Source: an uncultured Candidatus Saccharibacteria bacterium (GTDB lineage Bacteria > Patescibacteriota > Minisyncoccia > Phycocordibacterales > UBA9973). From it: DNA of 64,000 nt. Below are positions 11,666 to 50,399 of the stretch, one piece after another. The position numbers and the translations under genes were made by a program. The notes under the pieces are model-generated. The model worked only from the letters and a program-made list of their open reading frames with translations. It searched no databases and had not been told where the DNA came from. The stretch spans positions 41,666-105,665 of the forward strand of contig CAYODR010000002.1 of the NCBI GenBank assembly GCA_964402895.1. The letters run 5' to 3'. Positions within the stretch are counted from its first letter, which is position 1. Each line of letters begins with the position of its first letter.

Positions 11666-12245
11666 ATGAAAATTGGATTAGACTTTGACGGTGTAATTGC
11701 TGACTGTGGTCAACTTAAATCACAGGCAGCAAAAGAAATCTATGGTATAGATGTACCAAGAGAACTTTTTAAAAGAGAAATCCTTATTGAGAACGGAATA
11801 ATGTCCGGTAATCAATATAGTGAATTTCAAAAAATAATCTATCACACCATGGAATTTGGGTTAAGAATGGAACCTGTAAAAGATTCATTTGAGTTTATAA
11901 ATAAACTTCTCGATCTTGGATACAGCGTAGAAGTCATAACCTCAAGATCTGACTCATCGCTTGATGTAGCCAAAGAGTGGTGTAAAAAGAATGGCTTGAA
12001 CATTCAAAAATTCACAGGAGTTGGGGGGGGGTAGAAGTAAGGCTCGGGCCTGCCAAGGTTTAGACATCTATATAGATGATGACCTGGACAAGATTATCCC
12101 TCTCGCAGTCATTGTGCCTCATAGATTTTTATTTTCTTGGGGGTATAATGAACAAATTTTAGAACAAAACCATGCAAAAAGAATTCATTCTTGGAAAGAA
12201 TTCTTTTGTGAAATAATGCTTCTCTCAGATATGCGATCTTACTAA
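11666..12245 (+). pseudogene. HAD-family 5'(3')-deoxyribonucleotidase-like gene, split by frameshift at a 9-nt poly-G tract
   Basis: N-terminal ORF (GLDFDGVIAD motif I) stops at 12034; C-terminal ORF (...DIYIDDD motif IV) continues in +1 frame from 12021; deleting one G fuses them. Confidence 0.65.
12023..12031. repeat. homopolymeric G9 tract (candidate slipped-strand site)
   Basis: ttGGGGGGGGGtag in a ~30% GC genome. Confidence 0.8.
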
Positions 12246-20360: not shown

Positions 20361-20735
20361 GGGGATGACAGGTTTCGATATATAAATGCTTTAAATATAT
20401 GCATACCGAGCATGAATAAACTCGTTAAATTTATTCAAAACGATTAACTGGCAACAGTATCGCAAAAGTAAAGTCACCTTTTAGTGGCTTTGCTCCGGCA
20501 TTCGCTTAAATAAGCCAATCTGGTGTCGTACGAAGTGAAACTTGATAACTTCATTACGGCAAAATTCATCAAGTTATAGTTTTATACTGTCTTGATATAA
20601 AACTGAAAATAAAAGACTCGAAGAAATATCATTTTGTAAGGTTTATAGATTTTCTTTTAAAAAACAAAACCATACTAAGTATGTAGATTATATTTAATGC
20701 CTTATATACACGGGGTTTCGATACCCCCATCTCCA
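20361..20735 (+). ncRNA. ssrA: transfer-messenger RNA (tmRNA, ssrA)
   Basis: 5' GGGGATGACAGGTTTCGA pairs with 3' ...CATCTCC+A (tRNA-like acceptor); T-arm GGGGTTTCGATACCCCC; internal tag ORF ...AKVKSPFSGFAPAFA-TAA; directly after smpB. Confidence 0.8.
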
Positions 20736-20742
20736 CAAAAAA

Positions 20743-24546: not shown

Positions 24547-25338
24547 CTAGGCGGCACAGCGGACATACCTCCCATTAGTAACGCTATGCCTATTCACACT
24601 ACCATTATTGAAATTCTGGGGGTAAGCATAGGAACTAGAAGAAGAAGTAGAAGACCAGTAAGCGCCCGAAACAAAGGAAAGGTTCCCACTTTGTGCTCCA
24701 TAGTCATTGATAGCTTTTAGGATTTCAACAGATGGAAGTCTTTTACCAAGTGAAGCACAGGTATTGTTGGCATTAGCCCAATTTAAAAGTGTGGTACTAT
24801 CATTTATATCATTTGCATCTAATGTGATAACTCCTGTTGTGTCTACTCCGTAGTGTCTATTGTTGTAGTATACTGCCACACCGAAGTTTCTAGTCTCTAG
24901 GGAGTCTTCTGGGACATAGTGAGTATTTAATGTGGTATCTGGAACATTTGAAGTTCTAACAACACATCTGATATTTCCTGCTCCTGCAATACTTACGAGT
25001 GCATCTATCATGGGCTGTATTGATGAGTGTGGTGATATACCTGTTTTGTTGTATGCACAAAGTCCTGCAAATGTACCATTGTCTAGGTGGTATAGTTGTG
25101 CTTGAGTTTGAAGATTCTTTAGATTTGATTTGATTGAAGCTACTCTACCACTTGTGCGAGCTGAGTTTAGTGATGCGATAACTACACCTGCGAGGATTCC
25201 GATGATTGCAATCACTACTAAAAGTTCAATGAGCGTGAAGGCTTTATTTTTATTATTAAAAATTTTTAGCGCAGAGAAACTCTTTTTAGAATAGCGCCCC
25301 TTCATTTGTATTTTTGGATGAAAGGTTAATTTTTTCAT
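24547..25338 (-). CDS. type IV pilin-like protein with C-terminal FGE/C-type-lectin-fold domain carrying a DGR variable-region scaffold
   Basis: Start at MKKLTFHPK (25338). Prepilin N-terminus NNKNKAFTLIELLVVIAIIGILAGVVIASLNSA. C-terminal C..LGKRLPSVEIL...GAYWSSTSSSSSYAYPQNFNNGSVNRHSVTNGRYVRCAA ends the ORF. Stop is 35 nt upstream of the DGR RT ORF. Confidence 0.75.
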   Translation of the reverse strand: MKKLTFHPKIQMKGRYSKKSFSALKIFNNKNKAFTLIELLVVIAIIGILAGVVIASLNSARTSGRVASIKSNLKNLQTQAQLYHLDNGTFAGLCAYNKTGISPHSSIQPMIDALVSIAGAGNIRCVVRTSNVPDTTLNTHYVPEDSLETRNFGVAVYYNNRHYGVDTTGVITLDANDINDSTTLLNWANANNTCASLGKRLPSVEILKAINDYGAQSGNLSFVSGAYWSSTSSSSSYAYPQNFNNGSVNRHSVTNGRYVRCAA

Positions 25339-33978: not shown

Positions 33979-34797
33979 CTAGGCGGCACAGCGTACATGG
34001 CCGGAACTGGTAGTAGCGCCCCTGTACACACCACCATCAGGGAAATACTGGTTGTAAGCGTAGGAGCTTGCTGACAGAGTAGACGACCAATAACCGTCTG
34101 CAAGGAACCCAAGGTTTGTCGTCTCAGATTCACCTTGCGCTCCATAGTCATTGATAGCTTTTAGTATTTCTATTGATGGAAGTCTCTTGCCTGCTGTAGC
34201 GCATCTGTCCATAGCTACTTGCCAATTAGTAGCACCACCATTATCTGCAGAATCAAGAGTGACAACTCCTGTAGTGTCAACTGCGTAGTGTGTTTCGTTA
34301 AAATATACAGCTACACCGAAGTTCTTAGTCTCAAGAGAATCTGCTGGTATAAAATGTGTAGCTCCAGTACTTGGTACAGAAGCAGTACGTACAATACATC
34401 TAACATTGTTTGCTCCTGCAATACTTGTAAGTGCATCTATCATAGGCTGGATTGACGAATGGTATCCTTGAGGAGTACCTAGGGCTGCATAATTATTTAG
34501 ATTTGAAACTTGTCCGCATAATCCTGCAAAAGTACCATTGTCTAGGTGGTATAGTTGTGCTTGAGTTTGAAAGTTTTTAAGATTTGATTTGATTGCTGCT
34601 ACTCTTCCACTTGTTCTGGCTGAGTTTAAAGATGCGATGACGACTCCTGCAAGGATACCTATGATTGCTATTACTACTAGAAGCTCAATGAGCGTGAAGG
34701 CTTTATTTTTATTATTAAAAATTTTTAGCGCAGAGAAGCTCTTTTTAAAATAGCACCCCCCTATTTGTATTTTTGGATGGAAGGTTAATTTTTTCAT
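33979..34797 (-). CDS. type IV pilin-like protein with C-terminal FGE/CLec-fold DGR variable-region scaffold (paralog of 24547..25338)
   Basis: N-terminal ~115 aa nearly identical to the other copy (MKKLTFHPKIQIGGCYFKKSF...KAFTLIELLVVIAIIGILAGVV). C-terminal ...GKRLPSIEIL...DGYWSSTLSASSYAYNQYFPDGGVYRGATTSSGHVRCAA. Inserted between rpsZ and rplE. Confidence 0.75.
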   Translation of the reverse strand: MKKLTFHPKIQIGGCYFKKSFSALKIFNNKNKAFTLIELLVVIAIIGILAGVVIASLNSARTSGRVAAIKSNLKNFQTQAQLYHLDNGTFAGLCGQVSNLNNYAALGTPQGYHSSIQPMIDALTSIAGANNVRCIVRTASVPSTGATHFIPADSLETKNFGVAVYFNETHYAVDTTGVVTLDSADNGGATNWQVAMDRCATAGKRLPSIEILKAINDYGAQGESETTNLGFLADGYWSSTLSASSYAYNQYFPDGGVYRGATTSSGHVRCAA

Positions 34798-38768: not shown

Positions 38769-39282
38769 CTAATTTGCTATTTTTACATAGTTTCCAGGAA
38801 TACTATTATTTAAAGAGGATTTTCTACAATTAAGATAGGTATCATATGACATATCTTCGCCAGATCCAGATTCTAGTCTAACAAAAATTATATATCTATC
38901 TACAGAACCAACGGGCGTACACCCCGTATAATCTCTTCTGTAATAAGCATACTCATGTGAATTTGGTAAACTTGAAATATATGGAGATAAAGAGTTAACT
39001 AGATTAGTTCTACCTGAATTACTTAAAAATCCTAAAGTTTCAGGGTAAATACCATTTTCAGCAAAATGCATTTCAAGTGCTGTTTGAATATTTTTAGCAG
39101 TAGCAAGCCTTGCGGCATCTCTCGCTTTACCTCTCGCACTATTTAAGCTTGCTATCACAACTGTTGCGAGTATTCCAATAATTGCTATCACTACTAATAG
39201 TTCTATCAGAGTGAAGGCTCTACTTTTTAGTGTATACCCCCCCCCCTATTTGTCTTTTAGAGTTTGCTGGTAAAATTTTCAT
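38769..39282 (-). pseudogene. type IV pilin-like gene, leader-peptide region frameshifted by a 10-nt poly-G tract (phase-OFF)
   Basis: ATG 39282 encodes MKILPANSKRQIGGG then the 10-G run (39237..39246) puts the pilin body (AFTLIELLVVIAIIGILATVV... from 39191) in another frame; removing one G gives MKILPANSKRQIGGGYTLKSRAFTLIELL. Confidence 0.65.
39237..39246. repeat. homopolymeric C10/G10 tract
   Basis: tataCCCCCCCCCCtattt. Confidence 0.85.
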
Positions 39283-39319
39283 GATTTTATTGTATCATAT
39301 TTTAATTTTACCCCACAAA

Positions 39320-39970
39320 TCAAATAGGTCCATTAGACATCCTATAATGAATAGCACCTGTAGATGTATAAGTTATTTTCCCACATCTTCTTTTTGTATT
39401 ATTATCCTCTGAAGATTCGTGCGGATCAAAAATATCATTAAGTTTATTAAAAATATCTAATAAAGAACTCTCTCCTGATGAAATAAAAAGATTAACTCCA
39501 TTAGTGGGAGCATTTGAAGTTGAGGCACAGGTTGAAACCTCATGGAAATTACCATCATTATCATACGCATAATTATTCCCATTATGAGGAAATGGAAACA
39601 CGGGCGCAGAAGAAAGATAATTTGAAAAATTAGTAGTATTTGAAGATATTGCTTGAGCTATAGATGGATTCGATGTACTTGAAGTTAAAGCATAAGTACA
39701 ATAAGTAGAAGCATGGCTATTTCTCTCTTTAGGCCAACAACCTGTTTCTAACAAAAGCATATTAAATGCCAATTCTATACTTCTTAGATCTGATGCAACT
39801 TTTGAAATTCTAGATTTCTCTCTTGCACTATTTAGACTTGCAATTACAACTGCAGCTAAGATTCCTATAATAGCTATCACTACTAGTAGCTCTATGAGGG
39901 TGAAAGCTTTTCTATAGGATGAATACCTAAATCTTATTTGCCTTTTAGAATCCGCCTGCAAATTTTTCAT
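39320..39970 (-). CDS. type IV pilin-like protein
   Basis: Start MKNLQADSKRQIRFRYSSYRKAFTLIELLVVIAIIGILAAVVIASLNSA; 216 aa; conserved upstream motif gtttttattataacat. Confidence 0.75.
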   Translation of the reverse strand: MKNLQADSKRQIRFRYSSYRKAFTLIELLVVIAIIGILAAVVIASLNSAREKSRISKVASDLRSIELAFNMLLLETGCWPKERNSHASTYCTYALTSSTSNPSIAQAISSNTTNFSNYLSSAPVFPFPHNGNNYAYDNDGNFHEVSTCASTSNAPTNGVNLFISSGESSLLDIFNKLNDIFDPHESSEDNNTKRRCGKITYTSTGAIHYRMSNGPI

Positions 39971-42929: not shown

Positions 42930-43640
42930 CTATTTACCACATAAAACTCTTCGAATTAGCGTTTTATCCTCAAGAACAGTTGATCCATTATCAAGCCTAA
43001 TCCTAAAAGCTGTATCAGCACTAACAGAAGTCCCTGACCAATATTGAACACTTGATGCATAATTTGCATTGTGAATATCAAATAAAGCTTTCATAGAAGA
43101 TACTCCTGGAACCCTTTTGCTAAGTGACGCACAATAAGCCAATGCCCCATCAAAAGTATAACTGGAAACAGAGCTTGCACTATCTAACTCTAAAATCCCA
43201 TGAGGGTCAGCAGTATAATTAATATCTCTATATAGCACGCCTATACCGAAATCTATTGAATTTAGAGTAGCGCTCCCGATATAACAATTTGCATTTGATA
43301 TAACATTTAGAGAATCTAAAATTGAAACAATTTTTTGATCATTACACAAACCAGCATAAGAACCATTATTATCTAAATAATACACATGTGCTTGAGACAC
43401 CGCATTTCTTAAATTAGATTTAATCGCTGCTATTCTCCCTCTATCTCTTGCACTGTTTAATGACGCTATCACTACCCCCGCAAGTATTCCTATAATTGAG
43501 ATGACGACTAAGAGTTCAATGAGAGTGAAAGCTTTACTTTTTATTGTATACCTCCCCATAGAATTTTTGAAAAATTGATTAACTTTTTCATTGGTTTTAT
43601 TATAACATTTAATAATTTCAAAAAGAAACCTTATCTTCAC
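42930..43640 (-). CDS. type IV pilin-like protein (start uncertain: 43640 or internal MGRYTIKSK at 43559)
   Basis: KAFTLIELLVVISIIGILAGVVIASLNSARDRG...; conserved MKKL-type leader ATG (43591) is out of frame at the GGGGAGG tract. Confidence 0.7.
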   Translation of the reverse strand: MKIRFLFEIIKCYNKTNEKVNQFFKNSMGRYTIKSKAFTLIELLVVISIIGILAGVVIASLNSARDRGRIAAIKSNLRNAVSQAHVYYLDNNGSYAGLCNDQKIVSILDSLNVISNANCYIGSATLNSIDFGIGVLYRDINYTADPHGILELDSASSVSSYTFDGALAYCASLSKRVPGVSSMKALFDIHNANYASSVQYWSGTSVSADTAFRIRLDNGSTVLEDKTLIRRVLCGK

Positions 43641-44538: not shown

Positions 44539-44710
44539 CCTAATTATAAAGTCCTTTCTTAATTTCTCTATTATGAATAGGAACTATGATTAAGGGGTGA
44601 CCACTTTTTTTAAATATTTTATGACTTCCTTTTTGTCTGATAAATACAAAACCTGATTTTTCTAAAATCTTTACTAAATCCTTATCTAAAATCGGATGAA
44701 ACTTAGGCAT
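44539..44710 (-). pseudogene. hicA: HicA family toxin gene with +1 frameshift
   Basis: MPKFHPILDKDLVKILEKSGFVF then frame shifts; HicA core RQKGSHKIFKKSGHPLIIVPIHNREIKKGLYN continues in next frame; overlaps hicB stop. Confidence 0.6.
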
Positions 44711-44927
44711 TTACAAGTACATTACCAATAATAGGCATAGAGGTATTGTAGTTTTCTCCTAATTCTTCAAGATAAAGCTCTATAGCTTCAATTATATTTT
44801 TTTGAGCTTCTTCAAAAGTTTCTCCTTGACTATAGCACCCTGGTAATCCAGCTACAGACACAACAAATCCTCCTTCTTCAGATGGTTCATATAACACAGT
44901 AAAAAGTTTTTCCTTTTTAATTTCCAT
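44703..44927 (-). CDS. hicB: HicB family antitoxin (UPF0150)
   Basis: 74 aa; FVVSVAGLPGCYSQGETFEEAQKNIIEAIELYLE hallmark motif. Confidence 0.8.
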   Translation of the reverse strand: MEIKKEKLFTVLYEPSEEGGFVVSVAGLPGCYSQGETFEEAQKNIIEAIELYLEELGENYNTSMPIIGNVLVNA

Positions 44928-50040: not shown

Positions 50041-50045
50041 TCATG

Positions 50046-50363
50046 TGTTGTACTAGTAAGCCGAATTCTGTTTAAATGATTATTTATCTAGGATGTAAAT
50101 TACTCTACACCTCAAGCGACACTCCAGAATAAATCTGGCACGGCCTTGCACACAAGTAAGGATTTAGCCGTTTCAATTTTATAGTTACCTATAAAGCTTA
50201 TCCCAAATGGGATACCTCTACCTTTCGGTTTTGGCGTCTCTGTTCGCACCTCGCACCTTGCGATGGATGGGTATTACCCACTACTCTGCTCCTTGATAAA
50301 TCAAGGGTGTGTTCGGACTTTCCTCACATAACCTAAAGCTATGCGCAATCAAACAGTACAACC
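50046..50363 (-). ncRNA. rnpB: RNase P RNA (bacterial type A-like, reduced)
   Basis: On minus strand: P4 strands GAGGAAAGTCCGAACAC (50325..50309) and ACAGAATTCGGCTTAC (50072..50057); GGTGCGAGGTGCGAAC P10/11-like block; P1 pairing TTGTACT/AGTACAA at ends; GC content well above flanks. Confidence 0.8.
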
Positions 50364-50399
50364 ATTATTACTTTACTTGAAATGAGTTAAAAGTAAAGA

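What the first reader, a model, noticed from the sequence alone, without database searches (positions are those of the whole stretch)
39191..39282. Poly-G(10) tract frameshifts a pilin leader peptide: candidate phase-variable pilin
All five pilin-like paralogs share a leader of the form MKKL/ILxxxxKxQIGG(C/R/G)Y...KAFTLIELL, in which the GG codons form a G tract. The tract differs between copies: G6+TGC in 34797 (in frame), GGGGCGC in 25338, none in 39970, GGGGAGG in 43591 (out of frame from the conserved ATG), and a 10-G run here that places the ATG at 39282 out of frame with the pilin body. A 10-nt homopolymer in a ~30% GC genome strongly suggests slipped-strand ON/OFF switching.
Basis: partly seen in the sequence, partly recalled or inferred. 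Interest (0 to 1): 0.7.

Follow-up and report, generated by a model that had tools for sequence, protein, structure and literature searches.

The report
Poly-G switch in a pilin leader
A run of ten G's sits inside the leader-peptide coding region of an otherwise intact type IV pilin gene of an uncultured Patescibacteria (CPR) bacterium and puts it out of frame, which is the classic signature of a slippage-driven ON/OFF switch, a mechanism well known in pathogens that I found no report of in this group, and switching itself is not shown here.

Summary
On the minus strand a G10 run (39246-39237) lies 12 codons after an ATG (39282). That ATG sits 6 nt after an extended -10 box, so the mRNA is probably leaderless. 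With 10 G the ATG frame stops after 20 codons. The intact pilin body (to 38769) is in the +1 frame and has no usable start.

G9 or G12 would give MKILPANSKRQIGGGYTLKSRA|FTLIELL..., which matches the leaders of intact relatives. The body is a prepilin by Pfam, NCBIfam and AF2 model.

G runs occupy the same leader position in paralogues and relatives: G6, in-frame G10, and interrupted versions. All use GGG codons, although GGG is only 12.6% of Gly codons here. The same design (long leader, poly-G, Ala at -1) occurs in Elusimicrobia, with in-frame G9 and G13 and an out-of-frame G10.

Best reading: a hypermutable contingency tract, caught OFF. Switching is not shown, because no read-level or same-locus strain data were reachable.

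One caution. The only other long G run in the window (G9, 12023-12031) also carries one G too many and breaks a conserved housekeeping-type gene. A homopolymer miscall or non-adaptive slippage therefore remains a live rival.

The mechanism is a known kind in a new lineage. Interest is moderate.

The parts
39289..39297 (-). Extended -10 promoter box TGATACAAT. Its last T is 6 nt before the ATG, which implies a leaderless mRNA.
   Evidence: Read from the sequence. The same TGnTAnAAT + 6-7 nt + ATG layout is present in all five pilin copies and in many other genes of the window. SD-like motifs precede only 5 of 76 starts.
39280..39282 (-). Conserved start codon of the prepilin leader.
39220..39282 (-). 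The 20-codon dead-end ORF (MKILPANSKRQIGGGVYTKK*) that is read from the ATG when the tract is G10.
39237..39246 (-). G10 homopolymer, the candidate slippage tract. G9 or G12 would fuse the leader to the pilin body.
39195..39218 (-). Prepilin cleavage/methylation motif A|FTLIELL (Ala at -1, Phe at +1, Glu at +5).
   Evidence: Pfam PF07963 N_methyl 31.9 bits against a cut-off of 21.2. TIGR02532 30.4 bits against a cut-off of 16.3.
38769..39245 (-). Intact pilin body frame (GGGYTLKSRA|FTLIELL...IAN*), with no further stop or frameshift.
   Evidence: It is 42-48% identical to full-length Patescibacteria pilins. The AF2 model has pLDDT 84.5, with a long N-terminal helix plus a beta domain. The top PDB fold matches are type IV pilins, although weakly.
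39320..39970 (-). Adjacent pilin paralogue with the same promoter/leader cassette, no G tract, in frame.
33979..34797 (-). Pilin paralogue (with a weak, below-cut-off Pfam Lcl_C match) carrying G6 at the homologous leader position, in frame.
24547..25338 (-). Pilin paralogue with an interrupted tract (AAGGGGCGC), in frame.
42930..43591 (-). Pilin paralogue with an interrupted tract (ATGGGGAGG). The conserved ATG is out of frame, and an internal ATG gives MGRYTIKSKA|FTLIELL.
12023..12031 (+). The second long G run in the window (G9). It is not part of the pilin locus, but it bears on the artefact and hypermutability rivals.
11666..12245 (+). NT5C/HAD-like gene broken by the G9 run. G8 would restore a 192-aa protein.
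   Evidence: Pfam NT5C on the restored protein. Full-length homologues at 50-60% identity, with the conserved motif GVG[YG]G.SK at the tract.

Best explanation
This is a type IV pilin paralogue of a Patescibacteria (CPR) bacterium. It is transcribed as a probably leaderless mRNA from its own extended -10 promoter. Its unusually long leader peptide is encoded partly by a homopolymeric G tract. Slipped-strand mispairing at this tract during replication would add or remove G's. With G9 or G12 the 5'-terminal AUG is in frame and a complete prepilin is made: MKILPANSKRQIGGGYTLKSRA|FTLIELL.... That prepilin would be cleaved after Ala(-1) by a prepilin peptidase and assembled into the pilus. With G10, the assembled state, translation ends after 20 codons and no pilin is made, because a leaderless mRNA offers no other start before the cleavage site.

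The locus would therefore be a stochastic, heritable and reversible ON/OFF switch for one member of a multi-pilin repertoire.

Shown: the tract, the frames, the intact pilin body, the homology of the restored leader, the promoter layout, and the recurrence of the tract in relatives.

Inferred: slippage itself, its reversibility, its adaptive value, cleavage, and assembly.
For: (1) The frameshift maps exactly to the tract. The residues after the tract in the body frame (YTLKSRAFTLIELL) are identical to the intact leader of P0003, and the DNA is near-identical to the leader of L002/P0034.

(2) The body is open to its stop. It is 42-48% identical to full-length pilins, carries the N_methyl/TIGR02532 domain, and models as a pilin fold.

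(3) Relatives carry G runs of different length at the homologous position: G6 (copy 34797 and L002), in-frame G10 (L003), and interrupted GGGGCGC and GGGGAGG. At the protein level the same position reads GG, GGG, GEGG or GW in relatives.

(4) Codon choice is homopolymeric against the genome's preference. GGG is 12.6% of Gly codons, and 0 of 56 Gly-Gly dipeptides in 33 long ORFs are encoded GGGGGG. Yet L002 and L003, which were found by protein similarity, use only GGG in the run.

(5) The same long-leader, poly-G, Ala(-1) design occurs in another phylum. Elusimicrobium posterum Dip510 has G9 in frame next to G10 out of frame. An Elusimicrobiaceae MAG has two G13 tracts in frame. A low-GC metagenome contig has G9 in frame. 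In all these loci the only G/C runs of 7 or more lie at pilin genes.

(6) About 80 A/T runs of 7-9 in the window never break an ORF, so the assembly is not generally prone to homopolymer errors.

(7) The -10 box 6 nt before the ATG, and the rarity of SD motifs, make this ATG the only plausible start.

(8) Precedent: gonococcal pilC switches through homo-G tracts in its signal-peptide region (PMC5354566).
Against: No tract-length heterogeneity was observed. Only one assembled copy of the locus exists, and the Logan assembly of SRR16797981 has no contig across 39225-39763.

The other long G run (G9, 12023-12031) also has one G too many, and it truncates a conserved, non-surface NT5C/HAD-type gene. 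That points to a systematic +1 miscall or to indiscriminate slippage rather than to a dedicated switch.

Out-of-frame alleles in other assemblies (L111, L118) could equally be homopolymer errors.

The pre-tract part of the leader shows only non-synonymous differences between paralogues. Its translation is therefore supported by frame conservation rather than by purifying selection.

Prepilin peptidase and mismatch-repair status are unknown, since neither gene is in the window.
Confidence: 0.58

Rival explanations
1. Homopolymer length miscall. The true majority tract is G9 (or G12), and the pilin is simply in frame in most cells. The G10, like the G9 in the NT5C-like gene, would be a sequencing, PCR or assembly +1 error. 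The tract would still be a mutable G9, but the OFF state would be an artefact.
For: Both long G runs in the window are exactly one G longer than the in-frame length. The second run breaks a conserved housekeeping-type gene that has more than 100 intact homologues. The Logan assembly of the same run fails around the pilin tract, and its contig starts 12 nt downstream of it. That is as expected if reads there are noisy.
Against: An independent assembler reproduces the G9 in the NT5C-like gene from the reads. About 80 A/T runs of 7-9 are all in frame. Other assemblies deliver in-frame G9, G10 and G13 tracts in homologous leaders. From general knowledge, PCR stutter mainly shortens runs rather than lengthening them.
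Confidence: 0.2
2. Non-adaptive decay. The frameshift is a real, incidental inactivation of a redundant pilin paralogue in a genome where long G runs are simply error-prone. No switch is under selection.
For: At least six pilin paralogues exist, so losing one is tolerable. Another copy (43591) also has its conserved ATG out of frame, through a change outside the tract. The NT5C-like gene is broken in the same way.
Against: The body has no second lesion, and the promoter is intact. The homopolymer is conserved as all-GGG codons across diverged relatives and in another phylum, which neutral decay would erode. Interrupted tracts in other copies show what decay or stabilisation looks like.
Confidence: 0.14
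3. Recoding. The G10 allele is expressed because RNA polymerase slippage or +1 ribosomal slippage on GGG GGG GGG G restores the frame in a fraction of products.
For: The run allows tRNA-Gly re-pairing one base downstream, and long homopolymers can cause transcriptional slippage (general knowledge). Two genes carrying the same +1 excess would both be rescued.
Against: There is no stimulatory structure: the fold of the first 123 nt has z = -0.92. The A-site codon after the run is an ordinary GUA. Homologous tracts elsewhere are in frame at the DNA level.
Confidence: 0.05

Closest known systems
Neisseria gonorrhoeae / meningitidis pilC1/pilC2 homo-G tract
   Same: A homo-guanine tract lies inside the signal-peptide coding region of a type IV pilus gene. 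RecA-independent frameshifting gives ON/OFF expression (PMC5354566).
   Different: PilC is a pilus-associated protein needed for pilus assembly and host-cell adherence, not a pilin subunit. As I recall, it has an ordinary (Sec-type) signal peptide. Here the tract is in the prepilin-type leader (PF07963/TIGR02532 cleavage motif) of a pilin subunit, on a probably leaderless mRNA, in a Patescibacteria genome. Switching has been demonstrated experimentally in Neisseria and not here.
Poly-G/C contingency loci of low-GC Campylobacter jejuni and Helicobacter pylori (general knowledge)
   Same: These are AT-rich genomes in which rare G/C runs of 8 or more are concentrated in surface-structure genes and toggle the reading frame by slippage.
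   Different: The targets there are mostly glycosyltransferases, flagellar-modification genes and restriction-modification genes, not pilins. They are documented by read, colony and strain polymorphism, which is missing here.
Neisseria pgtA/pglA poly-G (pilin glycosylation)
   Same: A poly-G tract controls a property of the type IV pilus by frameshifting (PMC2193922).
   Different: That tract lies inside an enzyme ORF rather than in a pilin leader.
Long-leader Ala(-1) pilins with poly-G in Elusimicrobia (found here; I found no report of them in the searched library)
   Same: Layout M-(K/N-rich)-Gly run encoded by G9-G13-(V/Y)x3-8-[KRNS]-A|FTLIELLVV. In E. posterum Dip510 one copy (G9) is in frame and its neighbour (G10) is out of frame.
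   Different: These genes have SD-led starts (AAGGAG), not leaderless ones. They belong to a different phylum, and their C-terminal domains are unrelated.

Membership tests
Type IV pilin / prepilin-type protein | Prepilin-type N-terminal cleavage/methylation domain (PF07963, TIGR02532). | tested here: met
   PF07963 scores 31.9 bits against a cut-off of 21.2. TIGR02532 scores 30.4 bits against a cut-off of 16.3.
Type IV pilin / prepilin-type protein | Phe(+1), Glu(+5) and a hydrophobic alpha1-N helix of about 20 residues. | tested here: met
   The sequence reads A|FTLIELLVVIAIIGILATVVIA. The AF2 helix spans residues 13-64 of the model.
Type IV pilin / prepilin-type protein | Gly at -1 of the cleavage site. 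| tested here: not met
   Ala is at -1 in this gene, in all five window paralogues and in the long-leader relatives. From general knowledge, Ala(-1) occurs in some processed pilins such as streptococcal ComGC. I treat this as a variant rather than an exclusion.
Type IV pilin / prepilin-type protein | Pilin fold: a long N-terminal helix packed on a beta-sheet, with a C-terminal Cys pair. | tested here: inconclusive
   The model has pLDDT 84.5 and pTM 0.74. The top Foldseek PDB hits are type IV pilins, but only at E = 0.025-1 with TM 0.35-0.48. Two Cys residues are present (YTGC...YLNC).
Type IV pilin / prepilin-type protein | Prepilin peptidase and pilus assembly machinery in the same genome. 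| not tested
   None lies in the 64-kb window. A PilB-type ATPase sits next to paralogue P0034 on L002, from the same sample. That L002 belongs to the same genome was not shown.
Simple-sequence contingency locus (homopolymeric-tract phase variation) | A homopolymer of about 8 or more inside the ORF or promoter, over-represented relative to base composition. | tested here: met
   G10. About 0.005 such runs are expected from composition (my arithmetic). Shuffles give 0.29 G8 matches against 5 observed.
Simple-sequence contingency locus (homopolymeric-tract phase variation) | A change of one repeat unit toggles a complete ORF against a truncated one. | tested here: met
   G10 gives a 20-codon stop. 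G9 gives a 170-aa prepilin whose leader matches P0003 and P0034.
Simple-sequence contingency locus (homopolymeric-tract phase variation) | Tract-length polymorphism at the same locus among reads, clones or strains. | not testable with these tools
   No reads are available. The only other assembly lacks the tract. No orthologue above 50% identity is in the databases.
Simple-sequence contingency locus (homopolymeric-tract phase variation) | Tract length varies among paralogues and homologues at the homologous site, with both in-frame and out-of-frame states. | tested here: met
   G6, G6, G10 (in frame), G10 (out of frame) and interrupted tracts. In Elusimicrobia and low-GC metagenome contigs: G9 and G13 in frame, G10 and G12 out of frame.
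Simple-sequence contingency locus (homopolymeric-tract phase variation) | The gene encodes a surface or host-interaction determinant. | tested here: met
   It is a pilin subunit. However, the second long G run lies in a cytoplasmic-type NT5C/HAD enzyme.
Programmed frameshift / transcriptional slippage site | A slippery run plus a stimulatory element, with the out-of-frame arrangement conserved in homologues. | tested here: not met
   No significant structure (z = -0.92). Homologous genes are in frame at the DNA level.

The most novel reading that the evidence does not exclude
The tract would be one instance of a dedicated switch cassette shared across phyla: promoter, start codon, K/N-rich leader, poly-G, short basic segment, then Ala|FTLIELL. 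This cassette would define a distinct class of prepilins in Patescibacteria and Elusimicrobia. It would give ultrasmall, host-dependent bacteria a stochastic way to vary which pilins they display, and hence attachment, host range, DNA uptake or phage exposure. As far as the searched literature shows, these would be the first contingency loci described in the CPR.
Probability: 0.35. Interest if true: 0.65.

Novelty: new member of a known kind. Interest (0 to 1): 0.45.

Why it matters
From the literature, pili of cultivated Patescibacteria (Saccharibacteria) are implicated in episymbiosis, host competition and twitching motility (PMC11623550 abstract). A slippage switch on individual pilin paralogues would mean that CPR populations hedge their bets over surface structures, as mucosal pathogens do. 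No paper in the searched library links phase variation to the CPR.

There is also a practical consequence. Gene callers truncate such genes: the database protein P0001 starts at an internal GTG and lacks the cleavage site. Pilin repertoires in MAGs are therefore under-annotated. Poly-G leaders also break de Bruijn assemblies.

The Elusimicrobium posterum isolate has the same design and offers a cultivable system in which to test it.

Tried and rejected
It still yielded the Elusimicrobia cases.

(2) The metagenome scan with G9+ gave only 8 contigs. That is too few for a frame statistic, and high-GC hits cannot be scored because start codons abound.

(3) Same-locus comparison failed. Exact-protein look-ups of the pilin, the adjacent pilin (two starts), rplB, P0001 and P0003 found nothing. 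Look-ups of DgkA, S19 and L22 returned only the one Logan contig, which starts 12 nt after the tract. L23 found 98%-identical strains in two other runs, but on contigs that stop before the pilins.

(4) A leader-only protein search and the profile search of representatives were dominated by the conserved mature N-terminus. They added only a handful of long-leader relatives.

(5) cluster look-up gave no organism names. The lineage is inferred from the names attached to homologues. A paper search for SRR16797981 found nothing.

(6) A frameshift-stimulating RNA structure was rejected.

(7) A general homopolymer-error assembly was rejected, because no A/T run breaks an ORF.

(8) An alternative start after the tract was rejected. 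No ATG, GTG or TTG lies between the TAG at 39248 and the cleavage site, and the first start (GTG 39191) lies inside the mature helix.

Full report
**What is there**

The window is 34% G+C. The gene in question lies on the minus strand. Reading that strand, the elements come in this order:

- an extended -10 box, TGATACAAT (39297-39289);
- six bases;
- an ATG (39282);
- eleven further codons (KILPANSKRQI);
- a run of ten G's (39246-39237);
- TATACACTAAAAAGTAGA;
- GCC TTC ACT CTG ATA GAA, the start of the pilin.

From the ATG the frame reads MKILPANSKRQIGGGVYTKK and stops at 39222-39220. The pilin body (GGGYTLKSRA|FTLIELLVVIAIIGILA... to the stop at 38769) is in the +1 frame. That frame is closed just upstream by a TAG that overlaps the first G.

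The ATG-to-Phe codon distance is 67 nt here. In three in-frame paralogues it is 66, 99 and 99 nt. One G fewer, or two more, fuses leader and body.

No ATG, GTG or TTG exists in the body frame before the cleavage site. The ORF finder, and the database protein P0001, begin at GTG 39191, inside the mature helix. That product could not be processed as a pilin.

**Is it more than chance?**

The window has only two G/C runs of 7 or more: this G10, and a G9 at 12023-12031. From the base frequencies, about 0.005 runs of ten are expected (my arithmetic). Dinucleotide-preserving shuffles give 0.29 G8 matches against 5 overlapping matches observed.

GGG is a minority Gly codon, at 12.6%. None of the 56 Gly-Gly dipeptides in 33 long ORFs is written GGGGGG.

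**What the gene is**

- The restored protein carries the prepilin N-terminal methylation domain (PF07963; TIGR02532).
- It has Phe(+1) and Glu(+5).
- It is 42-48% identical over its length to Patescibacteria pilins.
- It models with pLDDT 84.5 as a long helix plus a beta domain.
- Its best PDB fold matches are type IV pilins, although only weakly (E = 0.025, probability 0.97).
- Ala, not Gly, is at position -1. The same holds in all five window paralogues.

Names attached to homologues place the organism in the Patescibacteria/CPR. The window also holds ComEC and RecJ. A PilB-type ATPase lies beside paralogue P0034, on a contig from the same sample.

**The start codon**

All five pilin copies share TGnTAnAAT, then 6-7 nt, then ATG. 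The same layout, often a perfect TGnTATAAT, precedes many other genes in the window. SD-like motifs precede only 5 of 76 starts.

I infer leaderless mRNAs, so the 5'-terminal AUG would be the only start available. Diverged copies keep the frame open from this ATG into the pilin, even across a 33-nt insertion. That supports its use as the start. The few codons before the tract differ only non-synonymously between copies.

**Comparative evidence**

Removing one G gives ...QIGGGYTLKSRA|FTLIELL. The intact homologue P0003 reads MKKLTNLSKSVGGGYTLKSRAFTLIELL. P0034 reads MKKIPTNSKTQIGGYTLKSKAFTLIELL.

| Sequence | Tract at the homologous position | Frame |
|---|---|---|
| L002 (P0034 DNA) | ATA GGG GGG TAT (G6) | in frame |
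| L003 (P0029, another sample) | G10 (R GGG V) | in frame |
| Window copy 34797 | G6 | in frame |
| Window copy 25338 | AAGGGGCGC (interrupted) | in frame |
| Window copy 43591 | ATGGGGAGG (interrupted) | conserved ATG out of frame |
| Window copy 39970 | none | in frame |

The profile search added a few more long-leader relatives, reading QIGGC, MGGY, RGEGGY and QIGW. So the site is a labile Gly/G run in a small family.

The DNA scans also recovered the same design outside the CPR:

| Source | Tract | Frame |
|---|---|---|
| Elusimicrobium posterum Dip510, complete genome (L111) | G9 | in frame |
| Elusimicrobium posterum Dip510, neighbouring pilin (L111) | G10 | out of frame |
| Elusimicrobiaceae MAG (L028, L045) | G13 in each of two pilins | both in frame |
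| Low-GC metagenome contig (L117) | G9 | in frame |
| Metagenome contig (L118) | G12 | no in-frame start |

In E. posterum both genes sit behind strong AAGGAG sites. Three short-leader Gly(-1) pilins lie nearby. In every one of these loci the only G/C runs of 7 or more are at pilin genes.

**Interpretation**

The arrangement is that of a simple-sequence contingency locus. The closest precedent is the homo-G tract in the signal-peptide region of gonococcal pilC (PMC5354566).

I consider slippage-driven ON/OFF switching the most likely mechanism (0.58). Part of the reasoning is that any real G9-G10 run is expected to be hypermutable, whatever its exact length in this assembly (general knowledge).

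**Cautions**

(a) No length heterogeneity could be examined. The Logan assembly of SRR16797981 is 100% identical to the window. However, its contigs end at 39764 and restart at 39224, 12 nt past the tract. That fits noisy or mixed reads, but it is not diagnostic.

(b) The G9 at 12023-12031 also has one G too many. It truncates an NT5C/HAD-type gene that is intact in more than 100 Patescibacteria homologues. In those homologues the tract corresponds to a conserved GVG[YG]G.SK motif. The Logan assembly reproduces that G9. Two runs with the same +1 excess fit a systematic miscall, indiscriminate slippage or recoding as well as they fit a dedicated switch.

(c) Against a general artefact, about 80 A/T runs of 7-9 never break an ORF, and long G tracts are in frame in other assemblies.

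(d) No frameshift-stimulating RNA structure is present (z = -0.92).

**Novelty and verdict**

Literature searches found no report of phase variation or slipped-strand switching in Patescibacteria or Elusimicrobia.

The mechanism is classical. The lineage is new. So is the tract's placement, inside the prepilin-type leader of the pilin subunit itself, on an apparently leaderless mRNA.

I file it as a new member of a known kind, with moderate interest (0.45). Read-level tract counts are the decisive missing test.

Noticed in passing
window 12023-12031 (+), gene 11666-12245: A G9 run breaks a conserved Patescibacteria NT5C/HAD-like gene. G8 would restore a 192-aa protein that is 50-60% identical to more than 100 full-length homologues. 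The run encodes the conserved GVG[YG]G.SK motif. The Logan assembly has the same G9.
   Followed up: yes
window, about 76 gene starts (e.g. 1791, 6611, 7943, 13422, 19847, 28050, 38685, 57238, 58889, 63447): Many promoter-proximal genes have a perfect extended -10 (TGnTATAAT) 6-7 nt before the ATG. SD-like motifs precede only 5 of 76 starts. The organism appears to use mostly leaderless mRNAs.
   Followed up: partly
window 24547-25338, 33979-34797, 38769-39282, 39320-39970, 42930-43591 (all on the minus strand): Four of five pilin paralogues are inserted at four places inside the ribosomal-protein supercluster (upstream of rplC, two between rplB and rpsS, one between rplE and rpsH); the fifth (24547-25338) lies about 2.4 kb past its downstream end. 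Each has its own promoter/leader cassette. Two have a weak, below-cut-off Lcl_C match at the C-terminus. A DgkA gene also sits between a pilin and rpsS.
   Followed up: partly
window 43500-43610 (-): In copy 43591 the conserved ATG is out of frame because of a 1-nt loss upstream of the interrupted tract. An ATA-to-ATG change at the tract edge creates a new in-frame start, giving a short leader MGRYTIKSKA|FTLIELL.
   Followed up: partly
L111 673-681 and 2517-2526 (Elusimicrobium posterum Dip510, NZ_CP152277.1, about 1.072-1.080 Mb): Five pilin genes lie in 8 kb. Three are short-leader Gly(-1) genes. Two are long-leader Ala(-1) genes with G9 (in frame) and G10 (out of frame) behind AAGGAG sites. 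This is a cultivable system with the same design.
   Followed up: partly
L028 4769-4781; L045 500-512 (Elusimicrobiaceae MAG EPI_MAG_00158): Two pilin leaders each carry a G13 tract, both in frame (GGGGV).
   Followed up: partly
L118 41-61 and 117-128: A G21 run lies 56 nt upstream of a G12 pilin-leader tract on a JGI metagenome contig. The G21 may be a two-colour-chemistry poly-G artefact or a second tract. The pilin has no in-frame start at G12.
   Followed up: no
L119 1344-1352: In a 33% G+C contig a G9 run sits 4 nt upstream of a pilin ATG (GGGGGGGGGAAGATG), in the ribosome-binding region rather than in the ORF.
   Followed up: no
window 34792, 39224, 39764; L001, L123, L124: Logan contigs of the same and related samples end at or inside pilin genes and leader cassettes. 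Contigs of a 98%-identical strain (SRR23593165) cover rplC-rplB only and stop at the flanking pilins. This suggests that the pilin loci are repeat-rich or variable between strains.
   Followed up: partly
window about 44540-44927 (-): A HicB-like/HicA toxin-antitoxin pair lies between rpsJ and the pilin at 43591, according to the Pfam marks on L123.
   Followed up: no
window 20361-20738 (+), 50041-50364 (-): tmRNA and bacterial RNase P class A genes are present. RNase P scores just above its gathering threshold (105.5 against 100).
   Followed up: no
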